Part shown: positions 38,162 through 43,765 of the stretch, one piece after another
Layout: each line of letters opens with the position of its first letter
Numbering within the stretch: the first letter of the stretch is position 1
From: an uncultured Verrucomicrobiae bacterium
Lineage (GTDB): Bacteria; Verrucomicrobiota; Verrucomicrobiia; Limisphaerales; UBA1100
Length of the DNA stretch: 64,000 nt
Direction: 5' to 3'
NCBI GenBank assembly: GCA_937775205.1
Contig: CALKBX010000005.1
Span: 269,087 to 333,086, forward strand
Translations under genes and position numbers: made by a program
Notes under the pieces: generated by a model
Seen by the model: only the letters and a program-made list of their open reading frames with translations
What the model was told of the DNA's origin: nothing
The model's database searches: none

Positions 38162-38962
38162 ATGGCTGAAACTGAATCGCCCGAACCGTTGCACCCCGAT
38201 CTCATGCCCTCGTTGCGCAAACTGGTGCGCGGGTTGGAGGTGCTCTTTTGGGCGCTGCCCTTCGCGCTGCTCGTGTGTGTGCAGGAAACGATGGTGTCGT
38301 GGTGGGAATCGTGGGGCATCGCCCCCGCGCTGGCGGCGATGGTGCTGCTGTGGTACGGCACGTACAGCCTCAGCCATTTTCAAAAACAAGAACGCGTGTG
38401 GCAGGGCACGGTGAATTTCGCGCAAGTGCTCGCGCTGCTGATGGTGGGGCTCGTGCCCTTCCTCCATTGGCAGCAGCAAATCACGTCCGACACAATGACG
38501 TGGAGCCAAATGAGCGAAGCACAAAAACACGTCGTCTATTCTGCGTGCATCTTTTTCACCGCCGGAATGATGTACGTGCTAAATCTCAACCATGTGCTCG
38601 CACGGCTCGCTGCGATGTTGCCCGATCCCATTCTGCGCGCAGATGTGCGGCTGTTTGTGTATTTGAATTTCGGCCTGTTTCTGTTGTTGGTCATTGGCCT
38701 GTGGATGCATCAAAAAGCGGACGTAGTATTCCTCGGCTTGCGCGAGTTTGCACCGGCGTTTGCTGAAAGCATCGGCAGCTACCTTGGACTCGCCGCGATG
38801 ATGAAAGCCGCCATCCTGTGGGCGGCCACGCTCGTCGTCACCTTGACGATGACGATGCTGTGGAAAACGAAAGAGGCCATTCTCAAAAGCGTATTCAGCC
38901 TTGAACCGCCACCCTTACCGGAAGCGGCGGCCGCGGATGAAGTAGATCCCTCGCTGAATTAA
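38162..38962 (+). CDS. Hypothetical integral membrane protein
   Basis: About 6 hydrophobic segments, starting 3 nt after the speA stop. No family was recognised. Confidence 0.6.
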   Translation: MAETESPEPLHPDLMPSLRKLVRGLEVLFWALPFALLVCVQETMVSWWESWGIAPALAAMVLLWYGTYSLSHFQKQERVWQGTVNFAQVLALLMVGLVPFLHWQQQITSDTMTWSQMSEAQKHVVYSACIFFTAGMMYVLNLNHVLARLAAMLPDPILRADVRLFVYLNFGLFLLLVIGLWMHQKADVVFLGLREFAPAFAESIGSYLGLAAMMKAAILWAATLVVTLTMTMLWKTKEAILKSVFSLEPPPLPEAAAADEVDPSLN

Positions 38963-40062
38963 GCGGCTTTGGCATCGACGAGCCCGTACCAATTATCCCG
39001 CTGGCGCGGTTCGTAGCCGAGGTCTTTTATCAATCGCTGCATATCGGCCACGTCCATGCAGTAAACCGTGCCGGCTTTGGACACCACGTTTTCTTCGATC
39101 ATAATGCTGCCCAGATCGTTCGCCCCGTGTCGCAGTGCCACTTGGCCAATCTCGCGCCCTTGCGTGACCCACGAGCTTTGGATGTTGTCGATGTTATCCA
39201 AATAAATCCGCGAGAGCGCCTGCATCCGGAGGTACTCATGCGCGCCGACGGTGGGCGCTTTGAGTCGCGTGTTCTCCGCTTGAAACGTCCACGCGATGAA
39301 TGCGGTGAAGCCTTTGGTATCATCCTGCTGCACGCGCACGCGCTCCAAATGTTCGATGCGTTCCTCCACCGTTTCCACGTGGCCGAACATCATCGTGGCG
39401 GTAGTGGCGAGACTTTGGCGGTGGGCGATGGCCATTACTTCCAGCCATTCGTCGCTCATCGCTTTGAGTGGAGAAATTTTTTGGCGCACGCGGTCCACCA
39501 GAATTTCCCCGCCGCCGCCGGGGATGGAGCCCAATCCCGCCGCGCGGAAATCGCGGATGATGTCTTCCAGCGGCTCATCAAAAACCTCGCGGAAATGAAT
39601 GAACTCGCTCGGCGAAAATCCGTGCACGTTGATGGACGGGAATTTTTCACGAATGTGCGAAAGTAAATCGAGATACCATTGCTTATTCAATTTGGGATGG
39701 TGTCCGCCTTGCATTAAAATTTGCGTGCCATCCAGCGCGAGGGTTTCCTCGATTTTTTGGTCGATCTCATCGTGCGTGATCACGTAAGCATCCGCCGCTT
39801 TCTCGCTGCGCCAAAACGCGCAAAACTTGCAGTACACATTGCAGACGTTGGTGTAATTGATATTGCGGTCGATGCTGAAGGTGATGATGTCATTGCCGCG
39901 TCCTTCAAAGGCATCTTCTTTAGCCAGTTCACGCCTGCGATGAGCCAGAGCTCCTAAGGTTTCCAAGGGAAGCGTATAAAGACGCAAGGCTTCGTCAGAA
40001 GAAATGCGTTTTCCTGACCATGTTTTGTGCAGGAGTTTGTCTATGGAAGGATCATGGATCAT
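38959..40062 (-). CDS. mqnC: Radical-SAM cyclic dehypoxanthinyl-futalosine synthase
   Basis: NINYTNVCNVYCKFCAFW (CxxxCxxC), ILMQGGHHP. The start was set at the ATG at 40062 (MIHDPSIDKLL...) rather than the TTG at 40101. The mqnC versus mqnE assignment rests on my recollection of the QGGHHP/CAF pattern. Confidence 0.75.
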   Translation of the reverse strand: MIHDPSIDKLLHKTWSGKRISSDEALRLYTLPLETLGALAHRRRELAKEDAFEGRGNDIITFSIDRNINYTNVCNVYCKFCAFWRSEKAADAYVITHDEIDQKIEETLALDGTQILMQGGHHPKLNKQWYLDLLSHIREKFPSINVHGFSPSEFIHFREVFDEPLEDIIRDFRAAGLGSIPGGGGEILVDRVRQKISPLKAMSDEWLEVMAIAHRQSLATTATMMFGHVETVEERIEHLERVRVQQDDTKGFTAFIAWTFQAENTRLKAPTVGAHEYLRMQALSRIYLDNIDNIQSSWVTQGREIGQVALRHGANDLGSIMIEENVVSKAGTVYCMDVADMQRLIKDLGYEPRQRDNWYGLVDAKAA

Positions 40063-40129
40063 CCGGGGAGCAAATGTACGCACTTCACTCCCGAACCGCA
40101 AGGAAGGGGGGGCACTCCTTTATAAAAGA

Positions 40130-41320
40130 TTATTTTTCGGAAGCAGAATTTTGTTTTCCGATTTTGAGATCATAGGTGGTTTCTCCAATTTTCACAACCA
40201 CGGTGCTGGCGGTCACATCAACGCTGATCACTTTCACGCCATCCTGATCTTCTCCAACTGCCAGTTCGTAGTATTGGGCTTTCTTTCCTCTCGGTGGCGA
40301 TATTCTCAGGATGGCTTTTGTGCGGCCATTAATCCGAAGCAGTCCCGCAAGTTGCGGGGCATCGACAGGGACGAATTCTTCAATTTCAGGAGGCTTTTCA
40401 ACTTTGGGCGGCGGTATTAGGCGAAAAGCATCTGATTTCGCAAATGTTTGGGAGGCATTGTCGAGATATTGATGTATTGCTTTGTTTTGCTCTTCATTAT
40501 TGTTCATACCAAATAGTAGCTGGCCGATGGCCTCGAAGCCATTTACTCCCGCATTTGGTTTGAGGATATGAATGCTCAAGGAAAGCTGAACTTGGAGCCG
40601 CTGGCGGTCAGCGGTGGTCGATATCTTCATATCACGCACACGAACGCTCGCCATTTCCTGGTTGATGCCTCGGATGAAATCCGCCAGATCCTTAGGATCA
40701 CACACGAAAGAAACGTTACGCCTGTGTTCATGGAAAATCTGGGCCTTTTTTGGGCGGGCACCGCGAGCAACACTATTGCGTGTAAGAGTAATGCCAGCAC
40801 GTTGGGCGTTTCTTCGAATTCCTTCCAGTAGCTTTTGGGCTTGACTGGCATCCCCAGCGAAGGGGAGGGAGCCACTGGGTATTGATTTACCTCCAGCTTC
40901 ATTAGTCTGTATACTGGCAAATATCTGGTTGTAGGCTTTCTTTTCCTTTTGCAGTTTGGCGGCAACACTCTTTAAACGCTTCTTTCCATCGAGAAATATT
41001 TTCAGGGGGCTTCGTTCCTCCATTTCCCACTTGTAATTAACAGGCTCCGGGGCTTCAGGCAGGATTAGGTTGCTTGCGTTAACAGCATCCGGCCGAATCA
41101 TGCAAACAATTGTCCACCGCCCACGCCCTTCAGTGCCGGCTGCCTCTTCGTGCTGCGATGAGAGCATGACATCGTGAAACAACTTCCGTTGTTTTTTGGA
41201 AACCGGATCAGGCACCATAATTCTTGCGAGGTTATTGCGATAGTCATCCACCCGTTTGCCCTGCCCGGATTTCACCTCACCGTTGAGCGTGATATTGTTT
41301 CCCTCACCCCTCACCTTCAC
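40130..41320 (-). CDS. Hypothetical protein with PilN-end / PilO-like / PilP-like segments (low-GC insert)
   Basis: GTG start, 396 aa. VKVRGEGNNITLNGEVKSGQ...YRNNLARI resembles the PilN core. SFVCDPKDLADFIRGINQEMASVRVRDMKISTT...LQVQLSLSIHIL resembles a PilO/GspM ferredoxin-like end. LLRINGRTKAILRI...YYELAVGEDQDGVKVISVDVTASTVVVKIGETTYDLKI resembles a PilP/GspC beta domain. It is in the same frame as 41348-41632. Confidence 0.5.
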   Translation of the reverse strand: MKVRGEGNNITLNGEVKSGQGKRVDDYRNNLARIMVPDPVSKKQRKLFHDVMLSSQHEEAAGTEGRGRWTIVCMIRPDAVNASNLILPEAPEPVNYKWEMEERSPLKIFLDGKKRLKSVAAKLQKEKKAYNQIFASIQTNEAGGKSIPSGSLPFAGDASQAQKLLEGIRRNAQRAGITLTRNSVARGARPKKAQIFHEHRRNVSFVCDPKDLADFIRGINQEMASVRVRDMKISTTADRQRLQVQLSLSIHILKPNAGVNGFEAIGQLLFGMNNNEEQNKAIHQYLDNASQTFAKSDAFRLIPPPKVEKPPEIEEFVPVDAPQLAGLLRINGRTKAILRISPPRGKKAQYYELAVGEDQDGVKVISVDVTASTVVVKIGETTYDLKIGKQNSASEK

Positions 41321-41347
41321 CGAATTGATAAAGCCCAGTGACAGTTC

Positions 41348-41632
41348 TTACGGAATGTTGCCCGCAGCTGCTTCCAAGGTGTTCATTGCCAACAGGCGAG
41401 ACCTCTTGGCATTCACAACCTGCATTAATATACTCTGCCGATCTTCGTATTCTTTGCTTAGCTTATGATTTTCCCTTGATAATTGGTAGGCACGTTCCTC
41501 CTCGGCCGCAATAGGTTTCAATATGAATTGATTGAAGGCGAGATAGCTGGTTAATCCAAAAATAATCAATATGCCGGGGATAATTAAAAAAAGCCTAGGC
41601 CCTTTCAATCCAGTGTTTGTCTTGTGGCTCAC
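41348..41632 (-). CDS. Single-pass membrane + coiled-coil protein (PilN/PilO N-terminal-like), ends at an in-frame TAA
   Basis: MSHKTNTGLKGPRLFLIIPGILIIFGLTSYLAF (TM) is followed by a coiled coil. Its stop TAA (41348-41350) is followed by 9 sense codons and then ORF 40130-41320, all in the same frame. Confidence 0.5.
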   Translation of the reverse strand: MSHKTNTGLKGPRLFLIIPGILIIFGLTSYLAFNQFILKPIAAEEERAYQLSRENHKLSKEYEDRQSILMQVVNAKRSRLLAMNTLEAAAGNIP

Positions 41633-41710
41633 ACCACTTAAACTACCATTCCCGATTTCTGAGTCAAATTATATCCCATTACAATTTAGGCGGAAAATTA
41701 TAGTGTATTA

Positions 41711-41842
41711 TTATACGATAACTGGCTTGAACACGGGTTGGTTGCCATGAGTCCCTAGTAGCTCAATGAATTTATTGAGGCCGGCCTTTTCACGTCCGCC
41801 AAAGTTGTAGCGGATATGGTCTCTGTATTTCTGTGGTGAAAA
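41711..41842 (-). pseudogene. Orphan duplicate of the last ~43 codons of an mqnA homologue
   Basis: Translation is FSPQKYRDHIRYNFGGREKAGLNKFIELLGTHGNQPVFKPVIV*. The intact MqnA C-terminus is NFRQTYLGGHIQYELGDAEKAGLAKFSELLETHGETEVFTPLFV*. The last 29 residues are 17/29 identical by my count. The fragment begins 1 nt after the intact mqnA stop and is visibly more AT-rich. Confidence 0.7.
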
Positions 41843-41843
41843 A

Positions 41844-42593
41844 TCAAACAAACAAAGGCGTGAAGACCTCTGTTTCTCCGTGCGTTTCCAGCAGCTCCGA
41901 AAATTTTGCCAAACCTGCTTTCTCGGCGTCGCCGAGTTCGTATTGGATGTGGCCGCCGAGGTAGGTTTGGCGGAAATTGGCGTCGTAGTCGGGGTAGGTT
42001 TCGATGGTTTGGGCGAGGTGAGCGAGTCCGTTGGTTTTGGCGGTACGGAGTTTTTCGCGCAGGGGCTTGTCGTGATGACCACGGCGGAGTGCCCAGACGG
42101 CGTAGACGAAAGGGAGGTTGGTGAGTTCGTGCCACGCGGCGCCGAGATCCCAGATTTTGTGCTCGTGCGGGGCTCGTAGGAAATCGATGGCGGGATTGCC
42201 GATAAGTAAAACATTTTCCAACGAAACGGATTGGCGATAGCCACCGAGAGGTTCCAGCTTTGGGCTGCGGCCGCGCTCGGCGAAGAGCACGCGCAGGAGG
42301 TTCACGCTGGTGAGGCTGGCGGTGTCGCAGTGGATGGTTTCGATTTCATCCAGCGGCTGGCGGTGTGCGAGGAAGACGCTCTTCACCGCGCCGCGCGAGG
42401 CGACGGCCACGCCATCGAGCATATCGTAGCCGTCGTGAAAAAGCGCCTCGGTGATGCTCACAAGAGCGGCATCGTGTTGGCCGGCCCGCAGTTTTTCTGC
42501 CAAACGCGAGGGCACATCGTATTCCGTTTCGTGCTCGATGCCATGAGTGAGCGGCACGGAATTGAGATAAGGAACGGAGCCGATGCGTTTCAT
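41844..42593 (-). CDS. mqnA: Chorismate dehydratase (futalosine pathway)
   Basis: MKRIGSVPYLNSVPLTHGI..., 249 aa, periplasmic-binding-protein-like fold family. It overlaps mqnE by 4 nt. Confidence 0.85.
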   Translation of the reverse strand: MKRIGSVPYLNSVPLTHGIEHETEYDVPSRLAEKLRAGQHDAALVSITEALFHDGYDMLDGVAVASRGAVKSVFLAHRQPLDEIETIHCDTASLTSVNLLRVLFAERGRSPKLEPLGGYRQSVSLENVLLIGNPAIDFLRAPHEHKIWDLGAAWHELTNLPFVYAVWALRRGHHDKPLREKLRTAKTNGLAHLAQTIETYPDYDANFRQTYLGGHIQYELGDAEKAGLAKFSELLETHGETEVFTPLFV

Positions 42594-43765
42594 GCGGTGG
42601 CCAAATTATCGTCCAGTAAATTGGGCGGCACGGAATCATCCGGCGAATGGGGGGCGTCAGGTGTGTCATCGGTCCATTCGCGGACGGGTTCGTAAAAGGT
42701 GTTGCGTTGCACGGGCGTTTTGCCGGCTTCGCGAATGGCTTTGATGAGGGCGGCCTCGGGTTGGCATTGGGGCGCGCCGGTACCGGCCATTCGGAAAATG
42801 TTTTCTTCCACGATGGTGCCGTGCAAATCATCGGCGCCGTAGCTGAGTGCCACTTGGGCGAGTTTCATCCCGAGGCCCACCCAATACGCGGTGAGATGGT
42901 CAAAGTTATCAAGAAATAAACGGCTAACGGCGATGGTGCGGAGTGCGTCGTTGCCGGTGGGCGGATGCGTGACGGGTATGGCGTTATTCTCGGGTTGATA
43001 AGGCAGCGGAATGAAACCGGTGAAGCCGCCGGTCTCGTCCTGCAAAGCGCGCAGTTGGGCGAGGTGATCAATGCGTTGCTCGATGGTTTCTACGTGGCCA
43101 AAGAGCATCGTGCACGTGCTGCGCCCGCCGAGTTGATGCCACGTGCGATGGGCATCGAGATATTCGCTGGCGGTTTCTTTGCCCTTGGCGATAGCGTCAC
43201 GCACGTCTTGCTGGAAAATTTCCGCACCGCCGCCAGTGAGCGAATCCAGTCCGGCGGCCTTCAACGTGGCGAGCACTTCGGGCATTGGCTTTTTGCTGAT
43301 GCGGGCGAGGTGGTAAATCTCCACGGCGGTGAAGCATTTGAGCTGGAGATTTGCATTGAGCGCCTTCAGCGCGCGCAGCATTTCGGTATAATAATCAAAC
43401 GGCAGCGAGGGATGCAGTCCGCCGACGATGTGGAGCTCGGTTATATTGAGCGCCAGCGCTTCCTTGGCCTTCGCCACTATTTCGTCGATAGAAAGTTCGA
43501 AGCCATCGCCATTGCGTTTCTTGCGCGCGAAGCTGCAGAATTGGCATGAGAGGATGCAGTAGTTGGAATAATTGATGTAGCGGTTGACGATGTAACTGGC
43601 GCGGTTGCCGACCTTGCGTTCGGTGGCCAGCGAGGCGAGTCGGCCGAGGGCATTGAGGTCTGGCGTGCGAAATAGGCGCAGGGCATCGTCGGCCTCAAGG
43701 CGCGTGTTGGATTCGACTTTTTCGGCAAGGTCGGCCAGTTCGCTTTTTTGCAAAATGAAATCCAT
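42590..43765 (-). CDS. mqnE: Radical-SAM aminodeoxyfutalosine synthase
   Basis: The start was trimmed to the ATG at 43765 (MDFILQKSELADLAEKV...). NYSNYCILSCQFCSF, TELHIVGGLHP, LDSLTGGGAEIF, CTMLFGHVE and LQDETGGFTGFIPLPYQ match what I recall of SCO4494-type MqnE. Confidence 0.75.
   Translation of the reverse strand: MDFILQKSELADLAEKVESNTRLEADDALRLFRTPDLNALGRLASLATERKVGNRASYIVNRYINYSNYCILSCQFCSFARKKRNGDGFELSIDEIVAKAKEALALNITELHIVGGLHPSLPFDYYTEMLRALKALNANLQLKCFTAVEIYHLARISKKPMPEVLATLKAAGLDSLTGGGAEIFQQDVRDAIAKGKETASEYLDAHRTWHQLGGRSTCTMLFGHVETIEQRIDHLAQLRALQDETGGFTGFIPLPYQPENNAIPVTHPPTGNDALRTIAVSRLFLDNFDHLTAYWVGLGMKLAQVALSYGADDLHGTIVEENIFRMAGTGAPQCQPEAALIKAIREAGKTPVQRNTFYEPVREWTDDTPDAPHSPDDSVPPNLLDDNLATA

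What the first reader, a model, noticed from the sequence alone, without database searches (positions are those of the whole stretch)
41711..41846. Tandem duplicate of the mqnA 3' end marks the edge of the insert
**Seen in the sequence**
- Immediately after the intact mqnA stop (41844-41846), the next 43 codons plus stop (41842 down to 41711) encode FSPQKYRDHIRYNFGGREKAGLNKFIELLGTHGNQPVFKPVIV*.
- This is clearly homologous to the intact MqnA C-terminus ...FRQTYLGGHIQYELGDAEKAGLAKFSELLETHGETEVFTPLFV*. The last 29 residues are 17/29 identical.
- The fragment is encoded with AT-richer codons.
- The track ORF 41711-42244 is meaningful only in this 3' part.

**Inference**
- A diverged copy of a gene's 3' end at an island boundary is the classic footprint of integration or recombination into the end of that gene.
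- Because the fragment shares the low GC of the insert, the donor probably had the arrangement mqnA followed by the PilNOP-like gene.
- That would mean this odd linkage exists elsewhere and was transferred as a block by recombination within mqnA.
Basis: partly seen in the sequence, partly recalled or inferred. Interest (0 to 1): 0.65.

Follow-up and report, generated by a model that had tools for sequence, protein, structure and literature searches.

The report
Orphan mqnA tail from imported DNA
Just after an intact menaquinone gene (mqnA) lies a dead 35-codon copy of another lineage's mqnA tail, dragged in with a pilus-like gene by recombination: a clear but ordinary scar of gene transfer between related marine Verrucomicrobia.

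Summary
The peptide at 41711-41818(-) matches the MqnA C-terminus (Smith-Waterman score 104; shuffles 24±4; 0 of 5000 reach it). The same junction occurs in about ten other assemblies.

Corrections:
- Only 35 codons plus the stop derive from mqnA. The first 8 "codons" (41819-41843) are the left arm of the recipient's own intergenic hairpin.
- This is not an in-situ duplication. The fragment is 55% nt identical to the resident 3' end, but 93% identical to the functional mqnA 3' end of relative L004.

- Island-free close relatives (L006, L008-L010) have mqnA followed directly by mqnC and carry no fragment.
- Lower-GC relatives (L016-L018) have a full mqnA with this C-terminus followed by the PilN/O/P-like gene.

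The imported tract runs from 41818 to at least 39910. It ends in a 185-nt identical block inside mqnC, so one end is homologous and the other illegitimate. This is the pattern of homology-facilitated illegitimate recombination.

Two other left junctions exist in the population: a hybrid mqnA (L019) and a whole donor-type mqnA (L004, L022). The cargo gene carries a strain-specific nonsense codon (41348-41350).

Verdict: an ordinary mechanism, well documented here. Low-to-moderate interest.

The parts
41844..42593 (-). Resident (native-type) mqnA, intact, 249 aa
   Evidence: PF02621, E 3e-42. It is 95.6% aa identical to MqnA of the island-free relative L006 and 72% to donor-type L004. Nucleotide identity to L006/L014 is 92-100% right up to the stop.
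41819..41843 (-). 25-nt remnant of the native mqnA-mqnC intergenic region: the left arm of a long hairpin. It ends at the illegitimate junction (41818/41819).
   Evidence: TTTTTCACCACAGAAATACAGAGAC aligns with L009 TTTTTACCACAGAGACACAGAGAAC. In L009 that sequence is one arm of a hairpin of -49 kcal/mol, z -8.6. It is the only match in the window, with 0 expected by chance. L006 keeps the other arm.
41711..41818 (-). Orphan 3' end of a donor-lineage mqnA: 35 codons plus TAA. It has no start codon and is out of frame with the resident mqnA.
   Evidence: Score 104 vs shuffles 24±4. Nucleotide identity is 93% to the L004 mqnA tail, 77% to L017/L018, 72% to L011 and 55% to the resident tail. Variable sites among copies: 7 nonsynonymous to 2 synonymous.
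41633..41710 (-). Donor-type intergenic region between mqnA and the PilN/O/P-like gene. It is very conserved.
   Evidence: The same 36-mer occurs in L001-L004, L007, L020-L026. No Rfam family matches.
40130..41632 (-). Cargo gene: one PilN/PilO/PilP-like membrane protein (~500 aa in relatives). Here it is split by an in-frame TAA at 41348-41350.
   Evidence: The two ORFs share a frame. Homologues are single proteins of 483-543 aa. The codon is GAA in 9 relatives and TAA only here and in L001. The model shows a TM helix, coiled coil, two alpha/beta domains and a C-terminal beta domain, but at pLDDT 53. Best fold matches are PilO 2rjz (E 5e-5) and Amuc_1100.
39910..40129 (-). Donor-type intergenic region plus the first ~50 codons of mqnC, imported with the block
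   Evidence: The window is 97-100% identical to L004 here but only 37-80% to L006 and L009. It is 84% identical to low-GC L011, against 71-73% elsewhere. The last donor-specific site is 39910.
39725..39909 (-). Crossover zone: 185 nt identical in the window, L004 and L006 (radical-SAM cysteine-motif region of mqnC)
   Evidence: No variable site among the three sequences. Beyond it the differences are ordinary strain-level ones.
38959..40062 (-). mqnC (367 aa), chimeric: donor-type first ~50 codons, native-type remainder
   Evidence: TIGR03699 MqnC, 451 bits, above the cutoff of 428. Identity profiles.
42590..43765 (-). mqnE, upstream operon gene. It holds the left crossover in type-C relatives.
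   Evidence: TIGR03700, 456 bits, above the cutoff of 434.6. Identity between L004 and the window drops from ~95% to ~72% at about 42750.

Best explanation
The 35-codon fragment is a non-functional relic of the mqnA gene of a different, lower-GC Verrucomicrobia lineage. In that lineage a PilN/O/P-like gene, sometimes with three further T2SS/T4P-like genes, sits between mqnA and mqnC.

A piece of such DNA entered an ancestor of this strain. It ran from about codon 215 of the donor's mqnA, through the pilus-like gene, into the first ~50 codons of the donor's mqnC. That ancestor had mqnA, a hairpin, then mqnC, with nothing in between.

The right end recombined homologously in a 185-nt perfectly conserved stretch of mqnC. 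The result keeps the resident mqnA intact and strands the donor's mqnA tail behind it. This is the signature of homology-facilitated illegitimate recombination.

Shown: the homology, the donor-type arrangement in other genomes, both boundaries, the empty site in close relatives, and the hairpin remnant.
Inferred: the route by which DNA entered the cell, the order of events, and that the fragment has no function.
For: **Empty site.**
- In L006 (93% nt identical on the left flank), L008, L009 and L010, mqnA with the native tail is followed by mqnC within 80-230 nt. None carries a second tail.

**Donor arrangement.**
- L017 (GC 0.49), L018 (0.456) and L016 (0.446) have mqnA with the fragment-type tail directly upstream of homologues of the cargo protein (50-63% aa identity).
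- The block has GC 0.47, against 0.58 for the window.
- Inside the block, the window is 84-85% nt identical to low-GC L011. Outside it the figure is 71-73%.

**Boundaries.**
- Left: native sequence continues 25 nt past the stop and matches one arm of the L009 hairpin. It then switches abruptly to donor codon CAT (His).
- Right: 18 consecutive variable sites between 39958 and 39910 read window=L004≠L006 (63 of the 86 variable sites across 40062-39912 do). A 185-nt identical run follows, and after it the signal disappears.
- There are no att-like repeats. L001's gene calls across 20 kb show no integrase.

**Population variants.**
- Type B (L019) is a hybrid mqnA that crosses over in a shared 8-mer, GAGCTACT.
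- Type C (L004, L022) has a whole donor-type mqnA: 72% aa identical to the window but 80-82% to L011/L017. Its crossover lies in the mqnE 3' end.

**Decay.**
- Fragment copies differ at 7 nonsynonymous sites (L>F, L>P, E>G x2, A>G x2, D>N) and 2 synonymous sites. The intact tail in the same contigs shows 3 and 6.

**Mechanism as defined in the literature.**
- PMC3240628 (abstract) and PMC5361080.
Against: - **Polarity unproven.** The same final structure would arise if a type-C genome (whole donor-type mqnA plus island) received native mqnE-mqnA DNA, anchored upstream and joined illegitimately downstream.
- **Shared right boundary.** The window and L004 switch at the same place. This could mean a single import followed by changes on the left, rather than independent events.
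- **Weak microhomology.** The junction shares only about 1 nt (a C), which is uninformative.
- **Weak selection test.** The nonsynonymous/synonymous contrast is not significant (Fisher p = 0.15).
- **No exact donor.** No genome nearly identical to the block in a low-GC background was found. The best native-looking donors are only 72-77% nt identical in the tail.
- **Competence unknown.** Nothing is known about natural competence in these uncultured bacteria.
Confidence: 0.72

Rival explanations
1. Reverse polarity. The ancestor was type C, with a whole donor-type mqnA plus the island acquired by ordinary double homologous recombination. Later, native-type mqnE-mqnA DNA from an island-free strain replaced most of the donor-type mqnA. 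That incoming DNA was anchored by homology upstream and joined illegitimately between the native hairpin and donor codon ~215.
For: Type C exists in L004 and L022. The window and L004 share the same right-hand boundary and are 97-100% identical across 40115-39770. The window's mqnE-mqnA is ~100% identical to L014 over 43860-41930 but only ~90% upstream, which looks like a recent recombination tract ending at this junction.
Against: It needs two events where one suffices. The shared right boundary is equally expected from independent crossovers, because this is the first long identical stretch. Nothing in the data distinguishes the two orders.
Confidence: 0.2
2. The island and the duplicated tail are ancestral to the whole high-GC clade, and the island-free relatives lost them by deletion.
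For: The island is decaying. The short form lacks 3.1 kb relative to L004, and this strain carries a nonsense codon. L006's intergenic region shows a deletion of the hairpin's left arm.
Against: - Four island-free relatives keep a native-type mqnC 5' end and intergenic region that resemble each other and differ 20-60% from the block.
- A deletion cannot recreate those sequences.
- The window still holds half of the native hairpin.
- The block's GC and sequence affinities point to another lineage.
Confidence: 0.04
3. Site-specific integration of a mobile genomic island into the 3' end of mqnA, with the element carrying a replacement tail, as in tRNA-targeting islands.
For: A diverged copy of a gene's 3' end at an island edge is the classic footprint. 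The insert has low GC.
Against: - No integrase or transposase in the block or within 10 kb.
- No direct repeats at the ends.
- The resident tail, not the incoming one, is attached to the gene.
- The right end is a homologous crossover inside mqnC.
- The 'island' occupies the same chromosomal position in the donor clade.
- Three different left junctions exist.
Confidence: 0.02
4. In-situ tandem duplication of the mqnA 3' end followed by divergence, or an assembly chimera.
For: The two tails are adjacent and in the same orientation.
Against: - The copies are 55% nt identical to each other, while the fragment is 93-95% identical to functional tails in other genomes.
- The junction is reproduced in about ten independent assemblies, including diverged strains.
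Confidence: 0.01

Closest known systems
Homology-facilitated illegitimate recombination (HFIR), described in transformable Acinetobacter, Streptococcus pneumoniae and Pseudomonas stutzeri, and in E. coli conjugation (PMC3240628; references in PMC5361080)
   Same: Foreign DNA is fixed by one homologous anchor (here a 185-nt identical stretch in mqnC) and one illegitimate join with minimal microhomology. The recipient DNA between the two points is lost (hairpin right arm, intergenic region, mqnC 5' end).
   Different: This case is inferred from natural variation in uncultured marine Verrucomicrobia, not observed experimentally. The route of DNA entry is unknown. The donor is a homeologous relative, so the 'foreign' DNA includes orthologous gene ends. 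That is why a recognisable gene tail is left behind.
Orphan 3' ends in Rhs/CDI/T6SS effector loci (displaced C-terminal tips; PMC5361080)
   Same: Gene-tail fragments are stranded next to an intact gene after recombination with one conserved and one non-homologous end. Clean-replacement and scar-leaving variants coexist in one population.
   Different: In those loci the resident tail is displaced and the incoming tail becomes functional, and the process drives toxin diversification. Here the incoming tail is the orphan, and the gene is a housekeeping biosynthetic enzyme with no evident benefit from the swap.
Genomic islands integrated at the 3' end of tRNA or protein genes by tyrosine integrases
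   Same: A partial second copy of the target gene's 3' end marks one edge of a low-GC insert.
   Different: No integrase, no att repeats, no excision-competent structure. The other edge is a homologous crossover within the next gene.
Mosaic genes formed by homeologous recombination (for example pbp genes of naturally transformable streptococci; from general knowledge)
   Same: Blocks from a 20-45% diverged relative are embedded in otherwise native genes. Examples here are the mqnC 5' end, the L019 hybrid mqnA and L004's whole mqnA.
   Different: No known selective agent acts here. The mosaicism appears to be a by-product of importing the gene in between.

Membership tests
MqnA / VitK2_biosynth (PF02621): is the fragment derived from an mqnA gene? 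| Significant sequence similarity to the MqnA C-terminal region | tested here: met
   Score 104 vs shuffles 24±4, 0 of 5000 reaching it. 88.6% aa and 93% nt identical to the tail of L004's full-length MqnA.
MqnA / VitK2_biosynth (PF02621): is the fragment a functional gene? | Complete reading frame covering the domain (~250 aa) with a start codon | tested here: not met
   Only 35 of ~250 codons. No start codon. Offset by 1 nt from the mqnA frame. No Pfam hit on its own. Excess of radical substitutions among copies.
HFIR product | One end of the insert lies in sequence homologous between donor and recipient | tested here: met
   Donor-specific sites stop at 39910. A 185-nt identical block follows at 39725-39909 in mqnC.
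HFIR product | The other end joins non-homologous sequences with at most a few nt of microhomology | tested here: met
   Native hairpin arm ...ACAGAGAC is joined to donor CATATCCGC. Only about 1 nt (C) is shared.
HFIR product | Recipient DNA between anchor and illegitimate site is replaced, and an empty site is recoverable in relatives | tested here: met
   L006 and L009 show the uninterrupted mqnA-hairpin-mqnC arrangement. The window lacks the right arm, the rest of the intergenic region and the native mqnC 5' end.
HFIR product | Arises from linear incoming DNA through RecA-dependent anchoring (transformation or conjugation) | not testable with these tools
Integrase-mediated genomic island | Integrase or recombinase gene in the element | tested here: not met
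   The block holds a single PilN/O/P-like gene. The neighbours are housekeeping genes.
Integrase-mediated genomic island | Direct repeats (attL/attR) at both ends | tested here: not met
   Only chance-level 10-19-nt matches, none at the boundaries.
Tandem segmental duplication | Copies are more similar to each other than to orthologues elsewhere | tested here: not met
   55% nt identity between the copies, against 93-95% to tails in other genomes.
PilN/PilO/GspM-type alignment-complex proteins (cargo gene) | Profile match above the curated threshold (PF04350 PilO, PF10741/PF04612 T2SSM, NF040576 GspM) | tested here: not met
   Best E-values are 0.012-0.14, all below the cutoffs.
PilN/PilO/GspM-type alignment-complex proteins (cargo gene) | N-terminal TM helix, coiled coil and ferredoxin-like periplasmic domain, in a secretin/ATPase gene context | tested here: inconclusive
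   - The secondary-structure pattern fits, but the model has pLDDT 53.
- Foldseek matches PilO 2rjz (E 5e-5, TM 0.65 normalised to the target) and Amuc_1100.
- The long form of the island has two GspD N-domain proteins (E 1e-24 to 1e-25, below cutoff).
- A distant paralogue sits between a T2SSE ATPase and a secretin.

The most novel reading that the evidence does not exclude
The linkage may be functionally meaningful rather than accidental. In the lower-GC donor clade, a four-gene set of periplasmic T4P/T2SS-like parts is kept inside the futalosine menaquinone operon, between mqnA and mqnC. The set comprises a PilN/O/P-like fusion, an unknown 400-aa protein and two secretin N-domain-only proteins. 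This arrangement persists across lineages whose cargo proteins are only 50% identical. Its repeated spread into a second clade, through three different junctions, would then reflect selection for the cargo. The tandem native/donor tails would serve as a substrate that yields working chimeric mqnA alleles such as the one in L019.
Probability: 0.12. Interest if true: 0.55.

Novelty: new member of a known kind. Interest (0 to 1): 0.3.

Why it matters
This is a clean natural example of how non-mobile chromosomal genes move between related but 20-45% diverged bacterial lineages without any mobile-element machinery. One conserved enzyme motif region (in mqnC) serves as the anchor, and the other end is joined illegitimately.

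The population also preserves the alternative outcomes:
- the scar-bearing form (type A);
- a hybrid gene resolved at an 8-nt identity (type B);
- a clean double-homologous replacement (type C);
- the empty site.

There are practical lessons for annotation. ORF 41711-42244 and the 94-aa plus 396-aa gene pair are artefacts of a gene fragment and a nonsense mutation. The low-GC 'island' extends into the 5' end of mqnC. The finding does not reveal a new kind of system.

Tried and rejected
- **DNA alignment of the two tails.** No meaningful alignment (55% identity), so recent duplication is rejected.
- **Pfam and NCBIfam on the cargo proteins.** Nothing at default thresholds. Only sub-threshold PilO/GspM/GspD hits at relaxed thresholds.
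- **Structure of the full-length cargo homologue P0002.** AlphaFold with a 13-sequence alignment gave pLDDT 53 and pTM 0.34. Only the PilO-like domain gave credible Foldseek matches, and the remaining hits are noise.
- **Rfam on 39600-42100.** Nothing relevant.
- **Is the hairpin arm a multi-copy REP-like element?** No. It has a single match in the window, and among the fetched loci only L009 holds it.
- **Promoter/terminator scan.** No more sites than in shuffles.
- **Nonsynonymous/synonymous contrast, fragment vs intact tail.** 7:2 against 3:6, suggestive but not significant (Fisher p = 0.15).
- **P0007 contig.** Gene order was available but no DNA, so its junction type is only inferred from its 253-aa MqnA.
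- **Resident PilM/N-like paralogue (P0019 type).** It is not inside this window; only the cargo gene matches it.

Full report
**1. Observation**

On the minus strand the window carries a futalosine-pathway operon.

| Gene | Coordinates | Evidence |
|---|---|---|
| flavoprotein (UbiX-like) and UbiA prenyltransferase | upstream | |
| mqnE | 42590-43765 | TIGR03700, 456 bits, above cutoff |
| mqnA | 41844-42593 | PF02621, E 3e-42 |
| low-GC stretch | see section 4 | |
| mqnC | 38959-40062 | TIGR03699, 451 bits, above cutoff |

- Its local alignment with MqnA covers the last 35 residues. The score is 104, against 24.0±4.0 for 5000 shuffles (maximum 52). The other five frames of the same DNA score 19-36.
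- At DNA level the two tails are only 55% identical.
- The junction is identical in three other assemblies of the same strain: L001 from ENA, and L002 and L003 from two JGI samples. It is therefore not an assembly artefact.

**2. Relatives define three states of the site**

*Empty site.*
- L006 is a single-cell genome (AH-558-L06). Its MqnA is 95.6% identical and its left flank 93% nt identical to the window.
- In L006, and in L008, L009 and L010, an mqnA with the 'resident' type of tail (…THGE.E.F.PLFV*) is followed by mqnC after 80-230 nt.
- None has a cargo gene or a second tail.

*Donor-type arrangement.*
- The 94-aa and 396-aa ORFs of the window are one gene. They share a frame and are separated by a single TAA (41348-41350). 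Homologues are single proteins of 483-543 aa.
- The contexts of those homologues show mqnA immediately upstream in L017, L018, L016, L004 and the P0007 contig.
- Their MqnA tails are of the fragment type. L004 and L022 read HIRYNLGAREKAGLNKFIELLETHGDQPVFKPVIV*, 93% nt identical to the fragment. L017 and L018 are 77% identical.
- L016-L018 have GC 0.45-0.49. The block in the window has 0.47, and the window as a whole 0.58.

*The fragment-bearing state.* The window's arrangement also occurs in L007, L021 and L023-L026. These are 92-98% identical to the window, and the junction is at the same nucleotide in all of them.

**3. Left boundary**

- After the mqnA stop the window reads TTTTTCACCACAGAAATACAGAGAC (41843-41819), and then CATATCCGCTAC….
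- The first 25 nt align with L009's TTTTTACCACAGAGACACAGAGAAC. In L009 this is the left arm of a near-perfect hairpin (-49.2 kcal/mol, z -8.6).
- L006 keeps the right arm of that hairpin.
- The arm sequence has a single match in the window, with none expected by chance.
- So 'FSPQKYRD' is native intergenic DNA. The mqnA-derived fragment is 41711-41818, which is 35 codons plus the stop.
- Donor and recipient share about 1 nt at the join, so it is an illegitimate junction.
- No att-like repeats flank the block.

**4. Right boundary**

- The window is only 37-66% identical to L006 from about 40250 down to about 39920 in 100-nt windows. It reaches at least 95% from about 39920.
- The window is 97-100% identical to L004 across 40115-39770.
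- Site by site, 18 consecutive variable sites between 39958 and 39910 read window=L004≠L006. Across 40062-39912, 63 of the 86 variable sites show that pattern.
- A 185-nt run identical in all three sequences follows (39909-39725). It covers the radical-SAM cysteine-motif region. After it, only ordinary strain differences remain.
- The mqnC 5' end inside the block is 84% identical to low-GC L011, and the fragment 85% over 68 nt. The background identity to L011 is 71-73%.
- The imported tract is therefore 41818 to at least 39910, about 1.9 kb. It ends in a homologous crossover inside mqnC, so mqnC is a chimera.

**5. Mechanism**

- One homologous end plus one illegitimate end, with loss of the recipient DNA in between, is the definition of homology-facilitated illegitimate recombination. 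See the abstract of PMC3240628. The model is applied to orphan gene remnants in PMC5361080.
- I cannot decide whether the donor block entered a native chromosome or native mqnA DNA entered a genome already carrying a whole donor-type mqnA. I prefer the first because it needs only one event.
- Either way, the fragment is a relic of the donor-type mqnA.

**6. Other outcomes in the same population**

| Type | Loci | Left junction |
|---|---|---|
| A | window, L001-L003, L007, L021, L023-L026 | native mqnA, 25 nt of native intergenic DNA, then the 35-codon donor fragment |
| B | L019 | hybrid mqnA: native up to …KFSELL, then donor ETHGDQPVFKPVIV*; switch inside a shared 8-mer, GAGCTACT |
| C | L004, L022 | whole donor-type mqnA; crossover near window 42750, in the mqnE 3' end |

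- Type B's MqnA is 99% identical to the window's outside the last 35 residues. It is most simply explained as resolution of the tandem tails.
- Type C's MqnA is 72% aa identical to the window but 80-82% to L011 and L017, while its flanks are 87-96% identical to the window and L006.
- A metagenome scan with the donor intergenic 36-mer returned five contigs: four of type A and one of type C.

**7. State of the fragment and the cargo**

- Across type-A contigs the fragment varies at 7 nonsynonymous sites (L>F, L>P, E>G twice, A>G twice, D>N) and 2 synonymous sites.
- The intact tail next to it varies at 3 conservative nonsynonymous sites and 6 synonymous sites.
- This fits relaxed constraint, but the sample is too small for significance (p = 0.15).
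- The fragment has no start codon and is offset from the mqnA frame.
- The cargo gene's TAA is GAA in nine relatives and is shared only with L001, so it is a recent nonsense mutation.
- The window's form of the island also lacks 3.1 kb that L004 and L016 retain. The missing part holds a ~400-aa protein and two GspD N-domain-only proteins. The deletion joins gene 1 to the last codons of gene 4.
- The cargo protein has a TM helix, a long coiled coil, two alpha/beta domains and a C-terminal beta domain, in a low-confidence model (pLDDT 53).
- Its best fold matches are PilO (2rjz, E 5e-5) and Akkermansia Amuc_1100. Profile hits stay below threshold. 'PilNOP-like' is therefore reasonable but unproven.

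**8. Verdict**

- The mechanism is a known one and the fragment is most likely inert.
- The interest lies in the unusually complete natural series of recombination outcomes, not in a new kind of system.

Noticed in passing
window 41348-41350 (-): An in-frame TAA splits a ~500-aa PilN/O/P-like gene into the 94-aa and 396-aa ORFs. Nine relatives have GAA (Glu) at this codon. Only the ENA assembly L001 shares the stop.
   Followed up: yes
window about 41345-41085 (-); L005 8001-9479: About 80 aa of the cargo protein just after the TAA are ~81% identical to a resident PilM/N-like protein (P0019). P0019 sits in a T2SSE-ATPase/secretin cluster of the island-free relative AH-558-L06. Lower-GC homologues (P0007-P0014) have a different sequence in that segment. 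This looks like gene conversion of the imported gene by a resident paralogue.
   Followed up: partly
L004 9495-12622; L016 1777-4500: The long form of the island carries three more genes: a ~400-aa protein of unknown function and two tandem proteins that match only the N-terminal domains of the GspD secretin (E 1e-24 to 1e-25) and lack the pore domain. The window's short form is a 3.1-kb deletion derivative. It is also seen in the distant L017 and L018.
   Followed up: partly
L009 7748-7830; L006 7751-7800: The native mqnA-mqnC spacer is a long, near-perfect hairpin (-49 kcal/mol, z -8.6) with no T-run after it. L006 has lost its left arm, and the window retains only the left arm. L008 and L010 have different palindromic spacers. 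The spacer appears to be a hotspot for rearrangement.
   Followed up: partly
window 41633-41710 (-): The 78-nt spacer between the donor mqnA stop and the cargo gene is far more conserved than its surroundings. An identical 36-mer occurs across contigs that are 87-98% identical overall. The spacer contains two TATAAT boxes. It may be the cargo gene's promoter or leader. No Rfam family matches.
   Followed up: partly
window 43860-41930 vs L014; window 44700-43900: Identity to L014 jumps from ~90% to 97-100% at about 43860 and stays there to the end of mqnA. L004 and L006 are 94-99% identical to each other on the right flank, whereas the window is only 85-90% identical to either. The whole neighbourhood is a mosaic of recombination tracts.
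   Followed up: no
L014 end; L017 and L018 ends: The L014 contig stops at the mqnA stop codon. The L017 and L018 contigs both stop 118 nt after the cargo gene. These assembly breaks coincide with the polymorphic junctions and hint at co-occurring alleles in those samples.
   Followed up: no
window 39270-39397 vs 42987-43112: There is weak DNA similarity (70-74%) between mqnC and mqnE, which are paralogous CofH-family radical-SAM genes in the same operon. It explains the secondary BLAST hits and is unrelated to the finding.
   Followed up: no
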